The translations under genes were made by a program, and so were the position numbers. From NCBI GenBank assembly GCA_965219085.1, contig OZ244720.1:1248001-1312000 (forward strand): 64,000 nt of DNA. The letters are read 5' to 3'. Below the pieces are notes generated by a model. That model searched no databases, was not told where the DNA came from, and saw only the letters and a program-made list of their open reading frames with translations. The DNA comes from Dehalococcoidia bacterium (GTDB taxonomy: Bacteria; Chloroflexota; Dehalococcoidia; UBA2979). Shown one piece after another: positions 9,838 through 15,304 of this stretch (positions within the stretch are counted from its first letter, which is position 1; each line of letters starts with the position of its first letter).

Positions 9838-11220
9838 GTGACCCAGCGCTTCCTGCCGTGCGACCGTGACCAGCAATACCTGATGCCCGCCAGCCTGCGC
9901 GACTGGCTGCCCGAGGACCACCTCGCGTGGTTCGTGCTCGATGCGGTGAGCCAGCTCGACCTCAGCGCGTTCTACGCGCGCTACCGCGAGGACGGCTGGG
10001 GGCGGAAAGCGTACGAGCCGTCGATGATGGTCGCGCTGCTGCTCTATGCCTACTGCGAGGGCGAGCGCTCGAGCCGCCGGATCGAACGGCGTTGCCGCGA
10101 GGACATCGCCTTCCGCGTGCTGAGCGCGAACCAGCAGCCCGACCACGCCACGATCTGCCGCTTCCGCCGGCAGCACGAGGAGGCGCTCTCGGGCCTGTTC
10201 GCCGGGGTGCTCAGGCTCTGCGCCGAGGCGGGTCTGTTGCGGGTCGGCGTGGTCGCGCTCGACGGGACCAAGCTGCGCGCCAACGCCAGCCGTGAGCGCA
10301 ACCGCACGGATGCGGAGCTCGAGGCCGAGGTGCGGCGCATCCTCGCCGAGGCGGAGCGGGTCGACGCCGGGGAGAATGCGCGCTGCGGCGACGCGCGGGG
10401 CGACGAACTGCCCCCGCAGCTCAGGAACCGCGAGGAGCGCCTGCAGCGGCTGCGCGAGGCGCGGGAGCGGCTGGCGGCTCGTGAGCGGGAGCGGCAGGAG
10501 GACTACGAGGAACGCCTCAGGAGCCGCGCGCAGAAGGACCGGCGCGGGCGCCGCCCGCAGCCGCCGCAGCGCGACCCGGGCGCGAAGGTGAACGTCACTG
10601 ACCCGGACAGCCGCGTGGTGCGTGACTATCACGGCTACTTCCAGGGCTACAACGTGCAGGCGGTGACGACTCGCGACCAGATCATCGTCGCGGCCGAGCT
10701 GACACGTGCGGCGACGGACATGCACGAGCTGCAACCGATGATCGAGGCGGCGAACCGCAACCTGCAGACCCTGGGCCGAGCGCCGGCGCGCGTGCTGCTG
10801 GCCGATGCCGGCTACTACTCCGAGGCGAACGTGCGGCAGGCCGAAGGCAGGGGTCCGGAGTTGCTGCTCGCGACCCGCAGCGACCGCAACCGGCGTGGCG
10901 GCGCAGCGCCGCCGCGCGGGCGCATCCCTGCCGGGCTCTCCGTACGTGAACGGATGGACCGGAAACTGGCGACGCAGCGTGGCCGGCGTCTCTACGAGCA
11001 GCGGCGCTGGATGATCGAACCCGTCTTCGGCGACATCAAGGAGAACCGGGGCATCCGCCGGTTCATGCGGCGCGGGATCGCCGCGTGCGCCAGCGAATGG
11101 AAGCTGATCGCCGCCACCCACAACCTCAAGAAGCTCTATCGCCGGGCGCGCCCGTCACCCCGGCCGGCGAACAGCAACCCCCGACGAGGAGACCGGGCTA
11201 CCGCCGCCGCTGCCGCGTAG
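9838..11220 (+). CDS. IS1182-family transposase
   Basis: LPEDHLA, SSRRIE, PDHATICRFR, DGTK, LADAGY, IEPVFG. Confidence 0.92.
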   Translation: MTQRFLPCDRDQQYLMPASLRDWLPEDHLAWFVLDAVSQLDLSAFYARYREDGWGRKAYEPSMMVALLLYAYCEGERSSRRIERRCREDIAFRVLSANQQPDHATICRFRRQHEEALSGLFAGVLRLCAEAGLLRVGVVALDGTKLRANASRERNRTDAELEAEVRRILAEAERVDAGENARCGDARGDELPPQLRNREERLQRLREARERLAARERERQEDYEERLRSRAQKDRRGRRPQPPQRDPGAKVNVTDPDSRVVRDYHGYFQGYNVQAVTTRDQIIVAAELTRAATDMHELQPMIEAANRNLQTLGRAPARVLLADAGYYSEANVRQAEGRGPELLLATRSDRNRRGGAAPPRGRIPAGLSVRERMDRKLATQRGRRLYEQRRWMIEPVFGDIKENRGIRRFMRRGIAACASEWKLIAATHNLKKLYRRARPSPRPANSNPRRGDRATAAAAA

Positions 11221-11294: not shown

Positions 11295-11930
11295 GGCTAC
11301 CCTTTTGGCACTCCACCCACGCGACTCCGTGCAACAGCCTCTGCTAGTACGCCAAGCACAGTCCCGTTGCAGGGAACTGACAGTCATTGTGCCCGACCAA
11401 GCAAAGAGCGCGGGGACACTGTTGGTGCTTGGGGCGCACAGAATCCTCATGGGGCCGACAAGTGATCTCGGCCCCGTCGATCCGCAATTCCCTAGCCCGA
11501 ATCCACCGATCGAAGCTTGACGGGGCGGGCTGCCGGGCTGGCGGAGAGTTCGGCGGGTGTGCCGTGGTGCGCCAGGCGGTGCCGGGGGCGGGCCGGAGCG
11601 AGGAGCCGGCGCTCAGCGCGGCTCGGGGGCGCTGAGAGCGCGGGCGCGAGGGTGCGCGAGGCGTGCGCGGGCATGCTGGCGCGAGCCTCGGACCCGGGCC
11701 GGCGCTGTGAGCGGGCGTCAGGCCGGGAGCGGAAGCGCCCGTAACCGCGCCAGGGCGGCTGCCCACTGCCCGGCCCAGGGCCAGCGCCTGGGGAGGTGCA
11801 GGGTCCAGCGCCGGGCAGAGATGGCATGAGGGCCGGCCTCCTCCTCAAGGGGGATACTCGCCCCCTGAAACAGCGGCCTCGATGGGCCAAGAGCGGCTCG
11901 GAAGAGCCTTGACGAGGTAGGAGACCGGCC

Positions 11931-13019
11931 ATGCAGCAGCATATCGCAACGACGCGGAGCATTGAAGGCAAGGATGGGCCCGCCATCACCGTCGGCCTCG
12001 ACGTGGGCGATCGTTACACGCACGTCCACGCCCTCGGCGCCGGCGGGGAGGTGATACGCGAGCGGCGCGTCCGCACCGCGGCTGCGGCGCTGGGCGCAGC
12101 GCTGACCGGCCTCTCCCCGGCGCGGGTCGTGCTCGAGGCGGGGCCGCGCTCGCCGTGGCTGAGCCGCGTCGTGGCGGACCTCGGCCATGAGGTGGTCGTC
12201 GCCAACCCTCGCCAGGTCGCGCTGATCGCCGGCAGCCAGCGCAAGACCGACCGGCTCGACGCCGCGTGGCTGGCGCGGCTGGGGCGCTTCGACCCGGAGT
12301 TGCTCGCCCCGATCCGCCACAGGAGCGAGCAGAGTCAGCACGACCTCGCCGTGGTGCGCGCCCGCGACGCGCTGGTGCGATCGAGGACGCTGCTCATCAA
12401 CCACGTGCGCGGGGCCGTCAAGGCCTGCGGCGCCGCGCTGCCGTCGTGCACGGCCGCGGCCTTTCACCGCAAGACGGCGGACCACATCCCCGACGGGCTG
12501 CGCCCGGCGCTGCTGCCGCTGGTGGAGGCGATTGGCGAGCTGACCGTGCGCACTGCGGCGGCCGGGCGGGAGGTCGAGGCGTTGTGCGAGGCCCACCCCG
12601 AGACCGCGGCGCTGCGCCAGGTCACCGGCGTGGGGCCGATCACCGCGCTCACGTTCGTGCTGACGATCGAGAACCCGGGGCGCTTCCCGCAGAACCGGGA
12701 GGTGGGGGCCTACCTCGGGCTCGTGCCGCGGCAGCGCGACTCAGGGGAGCGCGCGCCGCAGCTCGGCATCGGCAAGAGCGGCGACGCGGGCTTGCGGCGG
12801 CTGCTGGTGCAGGCCGCGCACTACATCCTCGGTCCCTTCGGACCCGATAGCGACCTGCGTCGCTGGGGTGAGCGCTACGCGGGAACAGGGGCGGGCAACG
12901 CGAAGAAGCGCGCGGTCGTGGCCGTCGCGAGGCGGTTGGCGGTGCTGCTGCTCGCGCTGTGGAAGAGCGGGGAGGTCTACGAGCCGCTGCGTCACGCCGT
13001 GGCCCGCGAGGCCGCGTAG
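11931..13019 (+). CDS. IS110-family DEDD recombinase/transposase
   Basis: GLDVG, LEAG, KTDRLDA, GVGPITA, GLVP..RDSG, AVVAVARRL. Confidence 0.93.
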   Translation: MQQHIATTRSIEGKDGPAITVGLDVGDRYTHVHALGAGGEVIRERRVRTAAAALGAALTGLSPARVVLEAGPRSPWLSRVVADLGHEVVVANPRQVALIAGSQRKTDRLDAAWLARLGRFDPELLAPIRHRSEQSQHDLAVVRARDALVRSRTLLINHVRGAVKACGAALPSCTAAAFHRKTADHIPDGLRPALLPLVEAIGELTVRTAAAGREVEALCEAHPETAALRQVTGVGPITALTFVLTIENPGRFPQNREVGAYLGLVPRQRDSGERAPQLGIGKSGDAGLRRLLVQAAHYILGPFGPDSDLRRWGERYAGTGAGNAKKRAVVAVARRLAVLLLALWKSGEVYEPLRHAVAREAA

Positions 13020-13274
13020 CCGGGAGGCGCCGCCTCAGCCGGCGGGGACCGGAGATCAGGAAGGAAGACCCGAGCGCGAACGAAGCCACGCACGTGATGC
13101 CGAGCACGGGCGACTGCGAGCACCCACTTGTCCCATCGAGGACGCGGCAGAGATAGCAGCGCCCCCTGGAAGCAGGATGTGCCTTCATGCACCGGGCTCG
13201 CTGTAGCCCACCGAGAGTGCGGATAGAAGCTTGGCACAGGCTCCGCGACCGGACATCACGAGCGGCTTGAATGG
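13020..13274 (+). ncRNA. Putative bridge/seek RNA
   Basis: Hairpin 13108-13164 with an internal loop carrying CACCCACT and GGCAGAG, matching the insertion target; second stem-loop contains ATAGAAG, matching the element end; boundaries approximate. Confidence 0.75.
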
Positions 13275-13392
13275 AGCGCCATACCCGGAGAAGGCCGCCA
13301 CGTCGGCCTTGCGGAAAGACCGTCCCTCATAGAAGCGCCATACCCGGAGAAGGCCGCCACGTCGGCCTTGCGGAAAGACCGTCCCTCATAGA
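13275..13392. repeat. Perfect 59-bp tandem duplication of the IS1111-group right end
   Basis: 13275-13333 equals 13334-13392; each unit begins with AG. Confidence 0.92.
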
Positions 13393-15304
13393 AGTGGGTG
13401 AGCCGTCCGGCGAGGGCGAAATAGCGCCACCTGAGCGTCCTGGTCGTGACGATTCCCTCGCCGAGCCCGAGCCGTGCCGTCCAGCGGGCGAGGTTGTGCG
13501 CGATCACCTGCACCGCGAGCCATGCCGCGTTCGCGGCGAAGCGGCCCGAGGGGAGATGGTTGAGCCCGACGCCGTACTTGAGGTCGCGGATCGCGTTCTC
13601 GATCTCGGCGTGACGGCGATGGTCAGCCTCCAGCTCCATCATCTCCCCGGCGCGGTCGGTGATGAAGGCGTGGTAGCTGTACGTCGCGAAGAGCGCCAGC
13701 TGTGAGCCGGGCGTCGGCTGGACGCGCCGCGCGATGAGCCGAACCGCGCTGGCGTCCTTCGCGTGCCGGAACGGCGTGTAGGTCGTCTCGGCGACAGCGG
13801 CGCCGCCCGGCAGCCAGTACGGGATCGGCGTCCAGTCCTCCTCAGGTATCGCCTCGAGCAGCGTGCGTACGTTCGGCTGCTGGCGGATCGTGATTGAGAA
13901 GCGGACATCCAGCGCGCGGCAGGCGGCGACGACGGCGTGGTTGTAGAAGCCGCTGTCGGCGCGCATCGTGAGCTGCCCGCTCGCTCCGGCGTCGCGTACC
14001 CGCGCCACCGTCTCACGCAGGAAGTGTGCGGCCCCCCGTGCGGTGTTGGCGCGGCCCTCGCGCAGCCGCGCCATCAGCACGTCACCCGTCCCGGCCGCGA
14101 CCGCGAGCAGCGGGTGATAGCCGCGCACGCCCGTGTAGCCGTGGTGCCGGGCGCCCTCCTTGGCCAGGCCGTAGGTCTCACAGATCGTCGAGTCGAGGTC
14201 GATCGTGAACGGCGCCGCGCCGGGTCCCGCCCCGGCCGCCCATGCGCGGGCGAGCAATGCGCGGCTGACGCGGTCGAGCTGGCGGACGTGGCCCCAGCGG
14301 AAGCTGCGCAGGAAGGTTCCGAGGGTGGACGGCGCCTTGACCGTGCAACCCAGCACGCTCGCCGTCCCGCCGGCGCGCAAGGCAGCGGCGTCGTCGATGC
14401 AGTCGCCGCCCGCGAGCGCCGAGGCGACCAGGGTCAGCAGCTTGTCGCCGGCGTTCGCGCGCCCCGCTGCGTCACCGAGGTCGAGGTGGGCGTCCGCCAG
14501 TGCACGGAGGCCGAGCCGGCCAGCGAGCGTGGCGGGGAGCAGCAGGCCTGCGTGGTCCACGAGGCGGTCGTCGCCTGAGGCGATGTCTATCCGCTCGGGG
14601 TTACTCGCTGCTAGCATCGAATGGGTGCTCCTGTGGCTGTGACGTGAATTCTCAAAACCCATTGTCCCAGCTACAGCGGAGCACCCAACCGCAGCCCCTC
14701 GCGCGCTCTTCTTCGGTGGATCAGGGCTTAGCGCGGACGGATCACTAGCAGCGGGAAAGGCAATCATCGCGGCAGTCGAGGACGCGGAGAGACGGGTTCA
14801 AGCGAACCCGGAAACTTACGCGCTGCACGCCGCTCTGTTGAGCGACGTGACAGCCCTGATGGTGCAGCAGGCTCGCGATGAAATCGCCCGTAGCGGGGCT
14901 CAGGTGAGGGAGGCACTCGCGTCTCATCCTGAGCGCCCTATCGAGGACATTAACGGCCTTGCTCAGGTCCTGCACGCCCCGCTGATCGATGAGACATCCA
15001 GTCACCGGGCGACGATCTCGGCGCGAGATGCTATCGGCTTTGGGCTACCTGTTGAGGAAGTCGACCCGAGCGGTCCGCAGTGGCAAGCGATTTGGCGCAT
15101 CTGGACAAAGTACGTGGCTCTGGGCCCCGTGCGAGTCTACGAAGGACAAACCGCCTCGCAGCTCTTGCGGGCGCCCTTCGCGATCCAGTAGCGCTCCGTG
15201 ACCGGCAGCCCGTCACGTCCGCCGGCGCCGACGCCATCGCGCTACCGCCTCTACCCTGGCCCGCCCCAGCTACGAGTACATGGGCATCTGGTCACCGTTC
15301 CTCG

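What the first reader, a model, noticed from the sequence alone, without database searches (positions are those of the whole stretch)
11811..13400. IS1111-group bridge/seek RNA programmed against an IS1380 transposase gene
Seen: the empty site is GGCAG-AG-TGGGTG (minus strand CACCCA-CT-CTGCC, codons T-H-S-A of the IS1380 transposase). In the 3' non-coding region, an outer stem (GGGCG-A-CTGC 13108-13117 with GCAG-CGCCC 13156-13164) and an inner stem (GTCC/GGAC) enclose an internal loop. Its strands are CACCCACT (13121-13128, 8/8 match) and GGCAGAG (13146-13152, 7/7 match), both including the core dinucleotide. A second stem (TGTGCC/GGCACA) exposes ATAGAAG (13223-13229), identical to the element's right end plus core; a left donor guide is not obvious. 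Known: IS110/IS1111 recombinases use such RNAs to recognise target and donor. Inference: a natural 13-bp-specific RNA-guided recombinase that parasitises another IS, and a candidate new programmable ortholog.
Basis: partly seen in the sequence, partly recalled or inferred. Interest (0 to 1): 0.8.

Follow-up and report, generated by a model that had tools for sequence, protein, structure and literature searches.

The report
RNA-guided IS1111-type element inside IS1380
This is a genuine insertion sequence of the known IS1111 kind, whose own small RNA carries two short guides matching the spot in another transposon's gene where it sits; sister copies in the same genome carry different guides and sit at correspondingly different spots.

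Summary

- **The element:** Window 11821-13394 is an IS1111-group element. It has a DEDD transposase, 11-bp subterminal inverted repeats with 7/3-bp extensions, and a 3' non-coding RNA. It interrupts an IS1380 transposase gene.
- **Guides match the flanks:** The internal-loop strands CACCCACT and GGCAGAG match the flanks, core AG included.
- **Decisive evidence:** The genome holds 11 copies in four variants (85-91% identical between variants). Their RNA scaffold is conserved, but both loop strands differ and match four different targets. These lie in IS1380, IS5 and IS3 transposase genes and beside an IS110-type element.
- **Wider support:** A covariance model built from these variants finds the RNA 3' of the transposase gene in 78 of 80 related loci. 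Stem covariation is strong (25 of 32 pairs compensatory). Guides match flanks far above shuffled pairings.
- **Donor side:** The ATAGAAG strand tracks the right end in 58 of 58 insertions with a canonical motif. No left-donor guide was found.
- **Exceptions:** Copy c3, and three copies in a related genome, sit at a co-resident variant's target. This suggests guidance in trans.
- **Not shown:** Transcription and activity are unproven.

This is a new member of a known kind, and a useful natural retargeting series.

The parts
11718..11820 (-). C-terminal remainder of the interrupted IS1380-family transposase gene (..S-A-R-R-W.. to the stop). Its last 7 bases, 11814-11820, are the left target half plus core: GGCAG-AG.
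   Evidence: Sequence and ORF list. Uninterrupted paralogs read ..G-R-L-T-H-S-A-R-R-W...
11821..13394 (+). IS1111-group element, 1574 bp including a 59-bp duplicated right end (1515 bp without it). One copy of the core AG is counted at the right. By the convention of PMC11187229 the element would be 11819-13392.
   Evidence: Own-genome search finds 11 copies with the same ends. RNA-library contigs join 11818 to 13393, skipping 1574 bases.
11826..11836 (+). Left subterminal inverted repeat ATGAGGGCCGG, preceded by the 7-bp extension AGATGGC (11819-11825).
   Evidence: Read. It matches the reverse complement of 13379-13389 at 10 of 11 positions.
11931..13019 (+). DEDD transposase gene, 362 aa. 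It has GLDVG (D24), E69, KTDRLDA (D107, D110) and GLVPRQRDSG (S271-G272).
   Evidence: Pfam PF01548 and PF02371. NCBIfam NF033542, 231.9 bits. C-terminal domain aligned to ISCro4 (9t56) and IS621 (8wt6) transposases. Motifs present in all variants.
13090..13244 (+). Seek/bridge RNA region: a target stem-loop, a short hairpin and a donor multi-stem.
   Evidence: Alignment A1 and model R1. R1 matches 78 of 80 related loci on the + strand 3' of the transposase gene. Covariation.
13108..13164 (+). Target-binding stem-loop. The outer stem is 13108-13117 with 13156-13164 and the inner stem is 13130-13133 with 13140-13143. An internal loop lies between them.
   Evidence: Minimum-free-energy fold. Helices 1 and 2 have 98.3% and 98.6% of cells paired and 9 of 13 pairs with compensatory change. 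RNAalifold recovers both.
13121..13128 (+). 5' loop strand CACCCACT, the guide complementary to the top strand of core plus right target half (AG-TGGGTG).
   Evidence: The homologous strand in variants B, C and D matches their own right flanks.
13146..13152 (+). 3' loop strand GGCAGAG. It is identical to the left target half plus core, so it is complementary to the bottom strand.
   Evidence: The homologous strand in variants B, C and D matches their own left flanks.
13178..13238 (+). Donor stem-loop. The outer stem is 13178-13183 with 13233-13238. The near-invariant middle stem is GCAC 13189-13192 with GUGC 13217-13220. The inner hairpin is 13194-13198 with 13205-13209.
   Evidence: helix 4 has 83.0% of cells paired, helix 5 has 99.5% and is almost invariant, helix 6 has 95.1% with 5 of 5 pairs compensatory. 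One search recovers helices 5 and 6 but not helix 4.
13223..13229 (+). 3' strand of the donor loop, ATAGAAG, the right-donor guide. It is identical to the last 5 nt of the right end plus the core.
   Evidence: The A/G at its third position agrees with the A/G in the right end in 58 of 58 unique insertions with a canonical motif.
13275..13394 (+). Tandem duplication of the right end (59 bp x 2.0, 100% identical). Each copy ends in CATAGA-AG.
   Evidence: Tandem Repeats Finder. The sister copy c2 lacks the duplication. The parent site is preceded by AG.
13379..13394 (+). Right subterminal inverted repeat CCGTCCCTCAT (13379-13389), the 3-bp extension AGA (13390-13392) and the core AG (13393-13394).
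   Evidence: Read. The same end is present in the copies c1, c2, c3 and c5-c9. It is missing from the truncated c4, and in c10 and c11 it lies beyond a ~900-bp insertion.
13395..14767 (-). N-terminal 457 codons of the interrupted IS1380-family transposase gene. 13395-13400 (TGGGTG) is the right target half.
   Evidence: NCBIfam NF033539, 300 bits. Pfam DDE_Tnp_1_4.

Best explanation
Window 11821-13394 is an IS1111-group insertion sequence whose 3' non-coding region encodes a seek/bridge RNA.

**Shown here: target recognition.**
- The first stem-loop of the RNA has an internal loop with two guide strands.
- The 5' strand (CACCCACT) is complementary to the top strand of core plus right half-site.
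- The 3' strand (GGCAGAG) is complementary to the bottom strand of left half-site plus core.
- Together they specify GGCAG-AG-TGGGTG, which encodes T-H-S-A near the C-terminus of an IS1380 transposase.

**Shown here: one donor guide.** In the second stem-loop the 3' strand (AUAGAAG) is identical to the right end plus the core, so it can pair with that end's bottom strand. No RNA strand could be assigned to the left end.

**Inferred from the family, not shown here.**
- The DEDD/Ser transposase binds this RNA and excises the element as a circle with abutted ends.
- It then recombines the circle junction with the target at the shared AG, without target duplication.
- The left end is probably recognised through the subterminal inverted repeats, by protein or by an unrecognised RNA contact.

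**Inferred from misplaced copies.** All variants share ends and donor loop. A ribonucleoprotein of one variant can therefore probably insert circles of another. This would explain copies that sit at a co-resident variant's target.
For: **Family.**
- Pfam PF01548 and PF02371. NCBIfam 'IS110 family RNA-guided transposase', 231.9 bits against a cut-off of 140.
- The GL-P----SG motif and the DEDD residues are kept in all five copies examined, one per variant plus c4.
- Subterminal repeats match at 10 of 11 positions, with 7-bp and 3-bp extensions and a 3' NCR. These are the criteria of PMC11187229, sections 4 and 6.

**Natural retargeting within this genome.** There are 11 copies.
- Variant A has guides CACCCA-CT and GGCAG-AG and target GGCAG-AG-TGGGTG.
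- Variant B has guides CGAGCTG-CT and CCACC-AG and target CCACC-AG-CAGCTCG.
- Variant C has guides GGCGGTAG-C(g) and TCAAG-AG and target TCAAG-AG-CTACCGCC.
- Variant D has guides CAGGCTG-CT and CCGCAT-AG and target CCGCAT-AG-CAGCCTG.
- Loop columns are almost never invariant (0 of 11 and 3 of 11), against 116 of 137 elsewhere.

**Site occupancy.** Both exact left half-sites in the genome are occupied. The six uninterrupted IS1380 paralogs have 1-2 mismatches to the 3' guide.

**RNA conservation.**
- Model R1 finds the RNA in 78 of 80 related loci.
- 94.9% of cells are paired, against 28.0-47.8% when partners are slid. 25 of 32 pairs have compensatory change. 0 of 500 shuffles reach the observed values.
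- RNAalifold on its own recovers 22 pairs, 16 of them compensatory.

**Guides against flanks in other genomes.**
- Left: 39 of 49 unique insertions match at 4 or more of 5 positions. The mean is 3.98, against 1.36 for shuffled pairings (maximum 2.06 in 1000 shuffles).
- Right: 34 of 58 match at 6 or more of 7 positions. The mean is 5.33, against 3.10 (maximum 3.53).
- Right-donor guide against the right end: 58 of 58 agree (30 G/G, 28 A/A).

**Order of guides.** The top-strand complement lies 5' of the bottom-strand complement, as PMC11187229 reports for IS1111 seekRNAs (section 9).

**Action in trans.** In genome G001, 3 of 6 copies of one variant sit in the target of a co-resident variant (24 listed copies) whose loops match that target. 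Two of the three are 100% identical over 1532 bp to copies at cognate sites.

**Coding capacity.** All 11 copies keep an open transposase frame of 368-374 codons.
Against: - No transcript is shown. RNA-library contigs cover only parts of the gene and NCR at depth 2-14, and may be DNA carry-over.
- Folding energy is unremarkable (z = -1.09), and Rfam has no matching family at E <= 1.
- Variant C's 5' guide has G where the core complement needs T.
- Copy c2 sits at a site with one mismatch.
- Copy c3 carries variant-A loops but sits in variant C's target, and it is a mosaic.
- In relatives, 10 of 49 left comparisons and 24 of 58 right comparisons score poorly. Some of these are register shifts that my scoring did not cover. 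Others are real mismatches: L031, L065, L039 and L051.
- Variant D has 10 perfect empty sites and only one insertion. Guide match therefore does not by itself predict occupancy.
- No left-donor guide was found. PMC11187229 (section 10) reports that an 82-nt seekRNA suffices for ISEc11. The donor loop may therefore be dispensable.
Confidence: 0.9

Rival explanations
1. It is a complete two-loop bridge RNA of the IS621 type. Both donor halves are read by RNA, and the left-donor guide exists but was missed. It might be UCAUGC at 13185-13190 pairing with left-end positions 4-9 (GCATGA), offset from the core.
For: - UCAUGC is complementary to GCATGA in the left end.
- Its polarity is the one expected by analogy with the target loop.
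- Durrant et al. (PMC11208160, passage in section 12) note that in many IS1111 orthologues the donor-binding nucleotides sit in a multi-loop.
Against: - Across relatives the left end varies at positions 3-5 (ATGGC, ATGGG, ATGGA, ATGAC and others). The 5' donor strand also varies (TTCAT, ATCAT, CCAGCGT, AGCTG and others). The two show no correspondence.
- The GCAC that would form part of the guide is almost invariant and pairs with GUGC.
Confidence: 0.25
2. Targeting is done by the transposase protein alone. The loop/flank matches are incidental, or are copies of target sequence carried along, with no RNA function.
For: - No expression data exist for this RNA.
- Transposases of the four variants differ (87.3-92.1% identical), so the protein could in principle carry specificity.
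Against: - The two half-site matches lie on opposite polarities in a conserved, covarying scaffold. They change in step with the target in four variants here and in dozens of lineages elsewhere.
- Identical elements are found at two different targets when a second guide variant is present. A protein-encoded specificity cannot explain this.
- Experiments on family members show the RNA is essential (PMC11187229, abstract and sections 9, 10).
Confidence: 0.03
3. The window copy is a stranded relic. The family mechanism is real, but this copy, with its duplicated right end, no longer moves.
For: - The 59-bp right-end duplication is absent from the sister copy c2.
- No perfect empty target is left in the genome.
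Against: - The reading frame, catalytic motifs, both ends and the RNA are intact.
- c1 and c2 are reported as 100% identical over 1515 bp, which points to recent movement.
- The outer right end is still flanked by the cognate half-site.
Confidence: 0.3

Closest known systems
ISEc11 / ISXne4 and other IS1111-family elements with a seekRNA (Siddiquee et al. 2024, PMC11187229; sections 4, 6, 9, 10, 13, 14 read)
   Same: - DEDD transposase with a GL-P----S(t)G motif.
- 11-13-bp subterminal inverted repeats with 7/3-bp extensions.
- Long NCR downstream of the transposase gene.
- An RNA with a top-strand complement 5' of a bottom-strand complement, overlapping at the insertion point.
- Natural retargeting between close relatives.
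   Different: - The transposase is 362 aa, slightly above the 330-350 aa the paper quotes for the family.
- Here four specificities co-exist in one genome. There are 9 distinct guide pairs in 23 close loci of other genomes.
- All four targets here lie in or beside other insertion sequences.
- Nothing here has been tested experimentally.
IS621 bridge RNA (Durrant et al. 2024, PMC11208160, passages read; solved structures 8wt6 and related entries)
   Same: - An RNA with two internal loops.
- Each target guide covers a half-site plus the shared core dinucleotide on opposite DNA strands.
- The donor loop contains a strand matching an element end plus the core.
- The recombinase C-terminal domain is alignable (E = 1.4e-08).
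   Different: - The RNA lies in the right end, not the left end.
- The order of the guides is reversed.
- The subterminal repeats are long.
- Only the right-donor guide is supported here.
- The core is AG on the strand given (CT on the other strand).
IS1111-family elements that target other mobile elements: IS4321/IS5075 in Tn21-family inverted repeats, and IS1383 in IS1384 inverted repeats (only reference titles seen)
   Same: An IS1111-type element that uses a sequence inside another mobile element as its specific site.
   Different: The sites here are inside transposase coding regions (IS1380, IS5, IS3), not terminal inverted repeats.
Tandem and modular products of IS110-family recombination: ISPpu9 partial circles (PMC12288879, abstract read) and tandem non-coding repeat units at IS110 loci (bioRxiv 10.64898/2026.08.14.744561, passages read)
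   Same: Partial modules bounded by an authentic element end, repeated head to tail next to the transposase gene.
   Different: Here the repeats end exactly at the right end plus core and restart after an internal AG (8 of 8 junction types). The preprint reports that its tandem units mostly retain left-donor matches.

Membership tests
IS1111 group of the IS110 family | DEDD (RuvC-like) N-terminal domain plus a PF02371 C-terminal domain | tested here: met
   PF01548 at 1.3e-18 and PF02371 at 6.9e-19. NF033542 scores 231.9 bits against a cut-off of 140. D24, E69, D107 and D110 are read.
IS1111 group of the IS110 family | GL-P----S(t)G motif in the C-terminal domain (PMC11187229, section 6) | tested here: met
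   GLVPRQRDSG in c1, and GLVP(R/Q)QR(D/E)SG in the other variants. The SG aligns with the SG of ISCro4.
IS1111 group of the IS110 family | Subterminal inverted repeats of 11-13 bp, with terminal extensions of 7 bp (left) and 3 bp (right) | tested here: met
   ATGAGGGCCGG (11826-11836) against the reverse complement of CCGTCCCTCAT (13379-13389) matches at 10 of 11 positions. The extensions are AGATGGC and AGA when one AG is assigned to the left.
IS1111 group of the IS110 family | The longer non-coding region lies downstream of the transposase gene | tested here: met
   The NCR is 110 bp upstream (11821-11930). Downstream it is 375 bp (13020-13394), or 316 bp without the duplication.
IS1111 group of the IS110 family | Site- and orientation-specific insertion without target duplication | tested here: met
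   The junctions share only the ambiguous AG. Uninterrupted paralogs are contiguous at the site. The joint skips exactly 1574 bases. All copies of a variant have the same orientation relative to the target.
seekRNA / bridge RNA | [quoted passage not shown] | tested here: met
   13121-13128 and 13146-13152. The same holds for variants B-D and for relatives.
seekRNA / bridge RNA | Guides vary with the target while the scaffold is conserved and base-paired | tested here: met
seekRNA / bridge RNA | Donor-binding loop with both left- and right-donor guides (IS621 type) | tested here: inconclusive
   The right-donor guide is supported (58 of 58). No left-donor guide was found.
seekRNA / bridge RNA | The RNA is made, binds the transposase and is required for movement | not testable with these tools
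   Only contigs of RNA libraries were available. They show neither strand, ends nor level.

The most novel reading that the evidence does not exclude
These elements may form a guild of co-resident guide variants with two properties.

- **Cross-mobilisation.** The variants share ends and donor loop, so the guide RNA of one variant places the DNA of another. Whole, identical elements are found at two different targets when a second guide variant is present.
- **Specialisation on other transposase genes.** Their guides have diversified onto conserved codons of other transposase genes (IS1380 T-H-S-A, IS5 L-K-S-Y, IS3 P-H-S-S-L). That would make them RNA-guided hyperparasites of other insertion sequences.

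The synonymous third-position polymorphism at the IS1380 site (TCT, TCG or TCC for Ser) separates occupied from empty copies. It could be escape from the guide. A guide variant matching the alternative allele exists in a related genome (L021).
Probability: 0.3. Interest if true: 0.65.

Novelty: new member of a known kind. Interest (0 to 1): 0.45.

Why it matters
The mechanism is established, so the element itself is not a surprise.

Its value is as a ready-made natural experiment. Four co-resident variants, and at least nine more guide pairs in close relatives, have near-identical scaffolds, ends and transposases but different 12-15-bp targets. That gives a panel for measuring guide rules in an IS1111-type system: guide length, register of the core, and mismatch tolerance. 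It would also add orthologues from a thermally and phylogenetically distant lineage (Dehalococcoidia-type genomes).

Two side results bear on open questions about IS1111 elements.
- The perfect covariation of one donor-loop strand with the right end, with no counterpart for the left end, suggests that donor recognition is split between RNA and something else.
- Whole elements sitting at a co-resident variant's target are natural evidence that guides act in trans between elements.

Preferential insertion into other transposase genes may also help explain how such elements persist at high copy number in small genomes.

Tried and rejected
- **Rfam.** No family matched 11500-13700 at E <= 1.
- **Folding energy.** z = -1.09 for the RNA region. 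This is not informative in such G+C-rich sequence.
- **An outermost stem in the minimum-free-energy fold** (GCCGAGC with GCUUGGC). In variants B and D it acquires an A-C mismatch, so I did not adopt it.
- **Left-donor guide.** I compared the 5' donor strand, the three bases after the core in the 3' target strand, and the unpaired stretch 13210-13216 with left-end variation across relatives. No correspondence was found. The AU that usually follows the core in the 3' target strand matches the first two bases of the left end. The left end always starts with AT, so nothing can be concluded from this.
- **Expression.** Four RNA-library runs (X17-X20) hold contigs over parts of the transposase gene and the NCR at depth about 2-14. 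These include 13047-13148 and 13219-13322 with no differences. Contigs cannot show strand, ends or level, and DNA may be present in such libraries. I draw no conclusion on transcription, and none from the parts without cover.
- **Gene conversion for misplaced copies.** It remains possible for c3, which is a mosaic. It is unlikely for L104 and L107 in G001, which are identical end to end to copies at cognate sites.
- **Guide matches at the tandem right-end junctions.** The internal restart sites share only the AG with the target; other positions match weakly. The cause of the duplications is left open.
- **Junction promoter.** I did not test whether the circle junction forms a promoter.
- **Supplementary files of papers** were not opened. 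The supplementary figures of PMC11187229 and Extended Data Fig. 10 of PMC11208160 show predicted folds and donor guides of IS1111 members. They may bear on the left-donor question.
- **Novelty claim.** The claim that targeting of transposase coding regions by this family is not prominent in print rests only on searches. It is weak.

Full report
**What is in the window.**
- The sequence at 11500-13700 shows an element bounded by GGCAG-AG|ATGGCATG on the left (element starts at 11821). On the right the boundary is CATAGA-AG|TGGGTG (element ends at 13394).
- It carries one long ORF, 11931-13019 (362 aa). The ORF has Pfam DEDD_Tnp_IS110 and Transposase_20. It scores 231.9 bits on NCBIfam 'IS110 family RNA-guided transposase', against a cut-off of 140.
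- Its C-terminal domain aligns with the solved ISCro4 and IS621 transposases, including the SG motif.
- The flanks belong to one gene on the minus strand, an IS1380-family transposase (300 bits).

**Family features.** PMC11187229 (sections 4 and 6) defines the IS1111 family by four features, and all are met.
- Subterminal inverted repeats of 11-13 bp. Here they are ATGAGGGCCGG and CCGTCCCTCAT, matching at 10 of 11 positions.
- Extensions of 7 bp on the left and 3 bp on the right. Here they are AGATGGC and AGA.
- A long NCR downstream of the transposase gene. Here it is 375 nt, against 110 nt upstream.
- A GL-P----S(t)G motif. Here it is GLVPRQRDSG.

The transposase is slightly longer than the 330-350 aa that paper quotes.

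**The decisive test: sister copies in the same genome.** The genome holds 11 copies covering at least 1362 of the query's 1574 bases, at 87-100% identity. Their flanks and alignment define four variants.
- **Variant A** (c1 in the window, c2, and the truncated c4) has loop strands CACCCA-CT and GGCAG-AG. It sits in GGCAG-AG-TGGGTG.
- **Variant B** (c5) has CGAGCTG-CT and CCACC-AG. It sits in CCACC-AG-CAGCTCG.
- **Variant C** (c7-c11) has GGCGGTAG-C(g) and TCAAG-AG. It sits in TCAAG-AG-CTACCGCC.
- **Variant D** (c6) has CAGGCTG-CT and CCGCAT-AG. It sits in CCGCAT-AG-CAGCCTG.

In the alignment of the four RNAs, 0 of 11 and 3 of 11 columns of the two loop strands are invariant. The three are the core AG and one T. 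In the remaining columns 116 of 137 are invariant. Scaffold conserved, guides replaced, flanks changed in step: this is the signature of RNA-guided targeting, and it cannot be chance.

**Targets.** All four targets lie in or beside other insertion sequences.
- A lies in the IS1380 transposase.
- C lies in an IS5-family transposase at L-K-S|Y (253.9 bits).
- D lies in an IS3-family transposase at the P-H-S|S-L of the integrase core (237.8 bits).
- B lies about 40 bp upstream of another IS110-family transposase ORF (148.2 bits).

**Occupancy.**
- For A, the exact 13-mer has no empty copy.
- Both exact left half-sites are occupied (c1, c4).
- Six uninterrupted IS1380 paralogs carry GGCCGAG, GGCGGAG or TGCCGAG in place of GGCAGAG.
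- The variable base is the third position of the Ser codon, so the difference is synonymous.
- c2 is inserted at GGCCGAG, so one mismatch is tolerated, or it arose afterwards.
- For C there are 6 empty perfect sites, 5 occupied copies, and c3.
- For D there are 10 empty perfect sites and one insertion. A guide match does not by itself predict occupancy.

**The RNA beyond this genome.**
- The transposase has relatives in 80 fetched loci. Identity is 69-98% in Dehalococcoidia-type assemblies and 49-59% in Acidobacteriota, Gemmatimonadota and others.
- A covariance model built from the four variants matches 78 of these 80 loci. Every match is on the transposase strand just 3' of the gene.
- On the resulting alignment 94.9% of cells pair, against 28.0-47.8% with slid partners. 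25 of 32 pairs show compensatory change, and no shuffle out of 500 reaches the observed values. That alignment is fitted to the model and so leans towards it.
- RNAalifold on its own recovers both target stems, the middle GCAC/GUGC stem and the inner donor hairpin (22 pairs, 16 compensatory).
- The 78 matches carry 47 distinct guide pairs. The 23 closest loci carry 9, with the two halves recombined independently.

**Guides against flanks elsewhere.**
- I located ends by the subterminal repeat motifs, independently of the guides, and reduced the set to 66 unique insertions.
- The 3' target strand matches the left flank at 4 or more of 5 positions in 39 of 49 cases. The mean is 3.98, against 1.36 for shuffled pairings and at most 2.06 in 1000 shuffles.
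- The 5' strand matches the right flank at 6 or more of 7 positions in 34 of 58 cases. The mean is 5.33, against 3.10 and at most 3.53.
- Some poor scores are register shifts outside my scoring window, for example the L071-L085 group. Others are real mismatches.

**Donor side.**
- The strand ATAGAAG (13223-13229) equals the last five bases of the right end plus the core.
- In relatives the strand reads AT(A/G)GAAG, and the right end reads CAT(A/G)GAAG with the same base in 58 of 58 unique insertions: 30 G/G and 28 A/A. One further locus has a non-canonical motif. A and G lineages are interspersed among the groups.
- This supports a right-donor guide.
- For the left end I found no covarying RNA position.
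- UCAUGC (13185-13190) can pair with left-end positions 4-9 in this lineage, but the correspondence fails in relatives.
- This agrees with the remark of Durrant et al. that IS1111 donor-binding nucleotides often sit in a multi-loop (PMC11208160, section 12). It also agrees with the finding that an 82-nt seekRNA suffices for ISEc11 (PMC11187229, section 10).
- How the left end is recognised remains open.

**Copies at the 'wrong' site.**
- c3 has variant-A loops but sits in variant C's IS5 target. It is a mosaic: the first ~270 nt are not A-like, and part is 98% like D. The rest is 100% identical to c1.
- In a related genome (G001), model R1 finds 35 matches. Among the 30 fetched, 6 belong to one variant and 24 to a second variant whose loops (CAGGCTG-CT and TTTTC-AG) match its own flanks.
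- Three of the six (L104, L106, L107) sit in the second variant's target. L104 and L107 are 100% identical over 1532 bp to L105 and L108, which sit at cognate sites.
- The two variants share the right terminus and the repeat core.
- The simplest reading is that the abundant variant's ribonucleoprotein inserted the other variant's circle. That means guidance in trans, which has been shown experimentally with supplied RNA (PMC11187229, section 10). Gene conversion remains possible for c3.

**Right-end duplications.**
- c1, c5 and c6 here carry extra head-to-tail right-end modules, as do L042 and L078 elsewhere.
- Every unit ends at the right end plus AG. In 8 of 8 distinct junction types the unit restarts after an internal AG.
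- This looks like recombinase-made exchange between the right end and internal pseudo-sites.
- Comparable partial circles and tandem non-coding units are described for IS110-family elements (PMC12288879, abstract; bioRxiv 10.64898/2026.08.14.744561, passages).

**What is not shown.**
- Transcription, RNA ends, binding and mobility are not shown.
- RNA-library contigs from two studies cover parts of the element at low depth. They also include an uninterrupted IS1380 form that skips exactly 1574 bases.
- Contigs cannot show that the RNA is made.
- All 11 copies keep an open transposase frame with the catalytic motifs. c1 and c2 are reported as 100% identical over 1515 bp, which suggests recent movement.

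**Verdict.** The element is a new member of a known kind, the IS1111 seek/bridge-RNA elements. Interest is moderate. It lies in the natural four-way retargeting within one genome, the exclusive use of other insertion sequences as landing sites, the half-resolved donor recognition, and the evidence for cross-mobilisation.

Noticed in passing
window 13275-13394; L005 (c5); L006 (c6, genome 2849994-2850740); L042; L078: Tandem head-to-tail duplications of the element's right end: 59, 76, 322/119/175/119, 59/64 and 155 x 5 bp. Each unit ends at the right end plus AG. In 8 of 8 junction types the unit restarts after an internal AG.
   Followed up: partly
genome 340399-341914 (c3, locus L003): A mosaic copy. 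The first ~270 nt come from other variants and the rest is 100% identical to the window copy. It sits in the IS5-type target of variant C with one extra base at the left junction.
   Followed up: partly
L104, L106, L107 against L105, L108, L109 and L110-L133 (genome G001): Three of six copies of one variant sit in the target of a co-resident, more abundant variant. Two of the three are identical end to end to copies at cognate sites. This suggests insertion guided in trans.
   Followed up: partly
L010 3024-3868 (copy c10); the same insertion is in c11: A ~900-bp ORF-less group II intron is inserted in the right end of two variant-C copies, on the opposite strand. Rfam RF02003 scores 95.1 bits and RF00029 scores 44.8 bits.
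   Followed up: partly
L021 and L027, just after GGATAG in the donor loop: In two other genomes a different IS110-family element is inserted at the same point inside the right-donor guide of this RNA, on the opposite strand. Its transposase C-terminus was recognised by eye only. This is one more layer of nesting.
   Followed up: no
genome 501880-501960: One IS1380 paralog has a deletion of about 62 bp that removes the target site, with GGTC microhomology at the junction. It could be an imprecise-excision scar or unrelated.
   Followed up: no
genome 1333208-1334569 (c4): A variant-A copy has lost everything from inside the donor loop to 82 bp into the IS1380 flank. The junction shows GTGCC microhomology and no AG. 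It differs from c1 at 6 of 1362 positions.
   Followed up: partly
window 9838-11220 (+): A 460-aa transposase with DUF772, DDE_Tnp_1_6 and DDE_Tnp_1 lies about 600 bp to the left of the IS1380 copy. The region is a cluster of insertion sequences.
   Followed up: no
IS1380 paralogs at genome 295028, 767886, 1081575, 1803844, 2005458, 3165482: The only differences from the occupied site lie in the left half-site. One of them is the synonymous third position of the Ser codon (TCT in occupied perfect sites, TCG or TCC in empty ones). A related genome's element (L021) carries the guide GGCCGAG that would match the TCG allele.
   Followed up: partly
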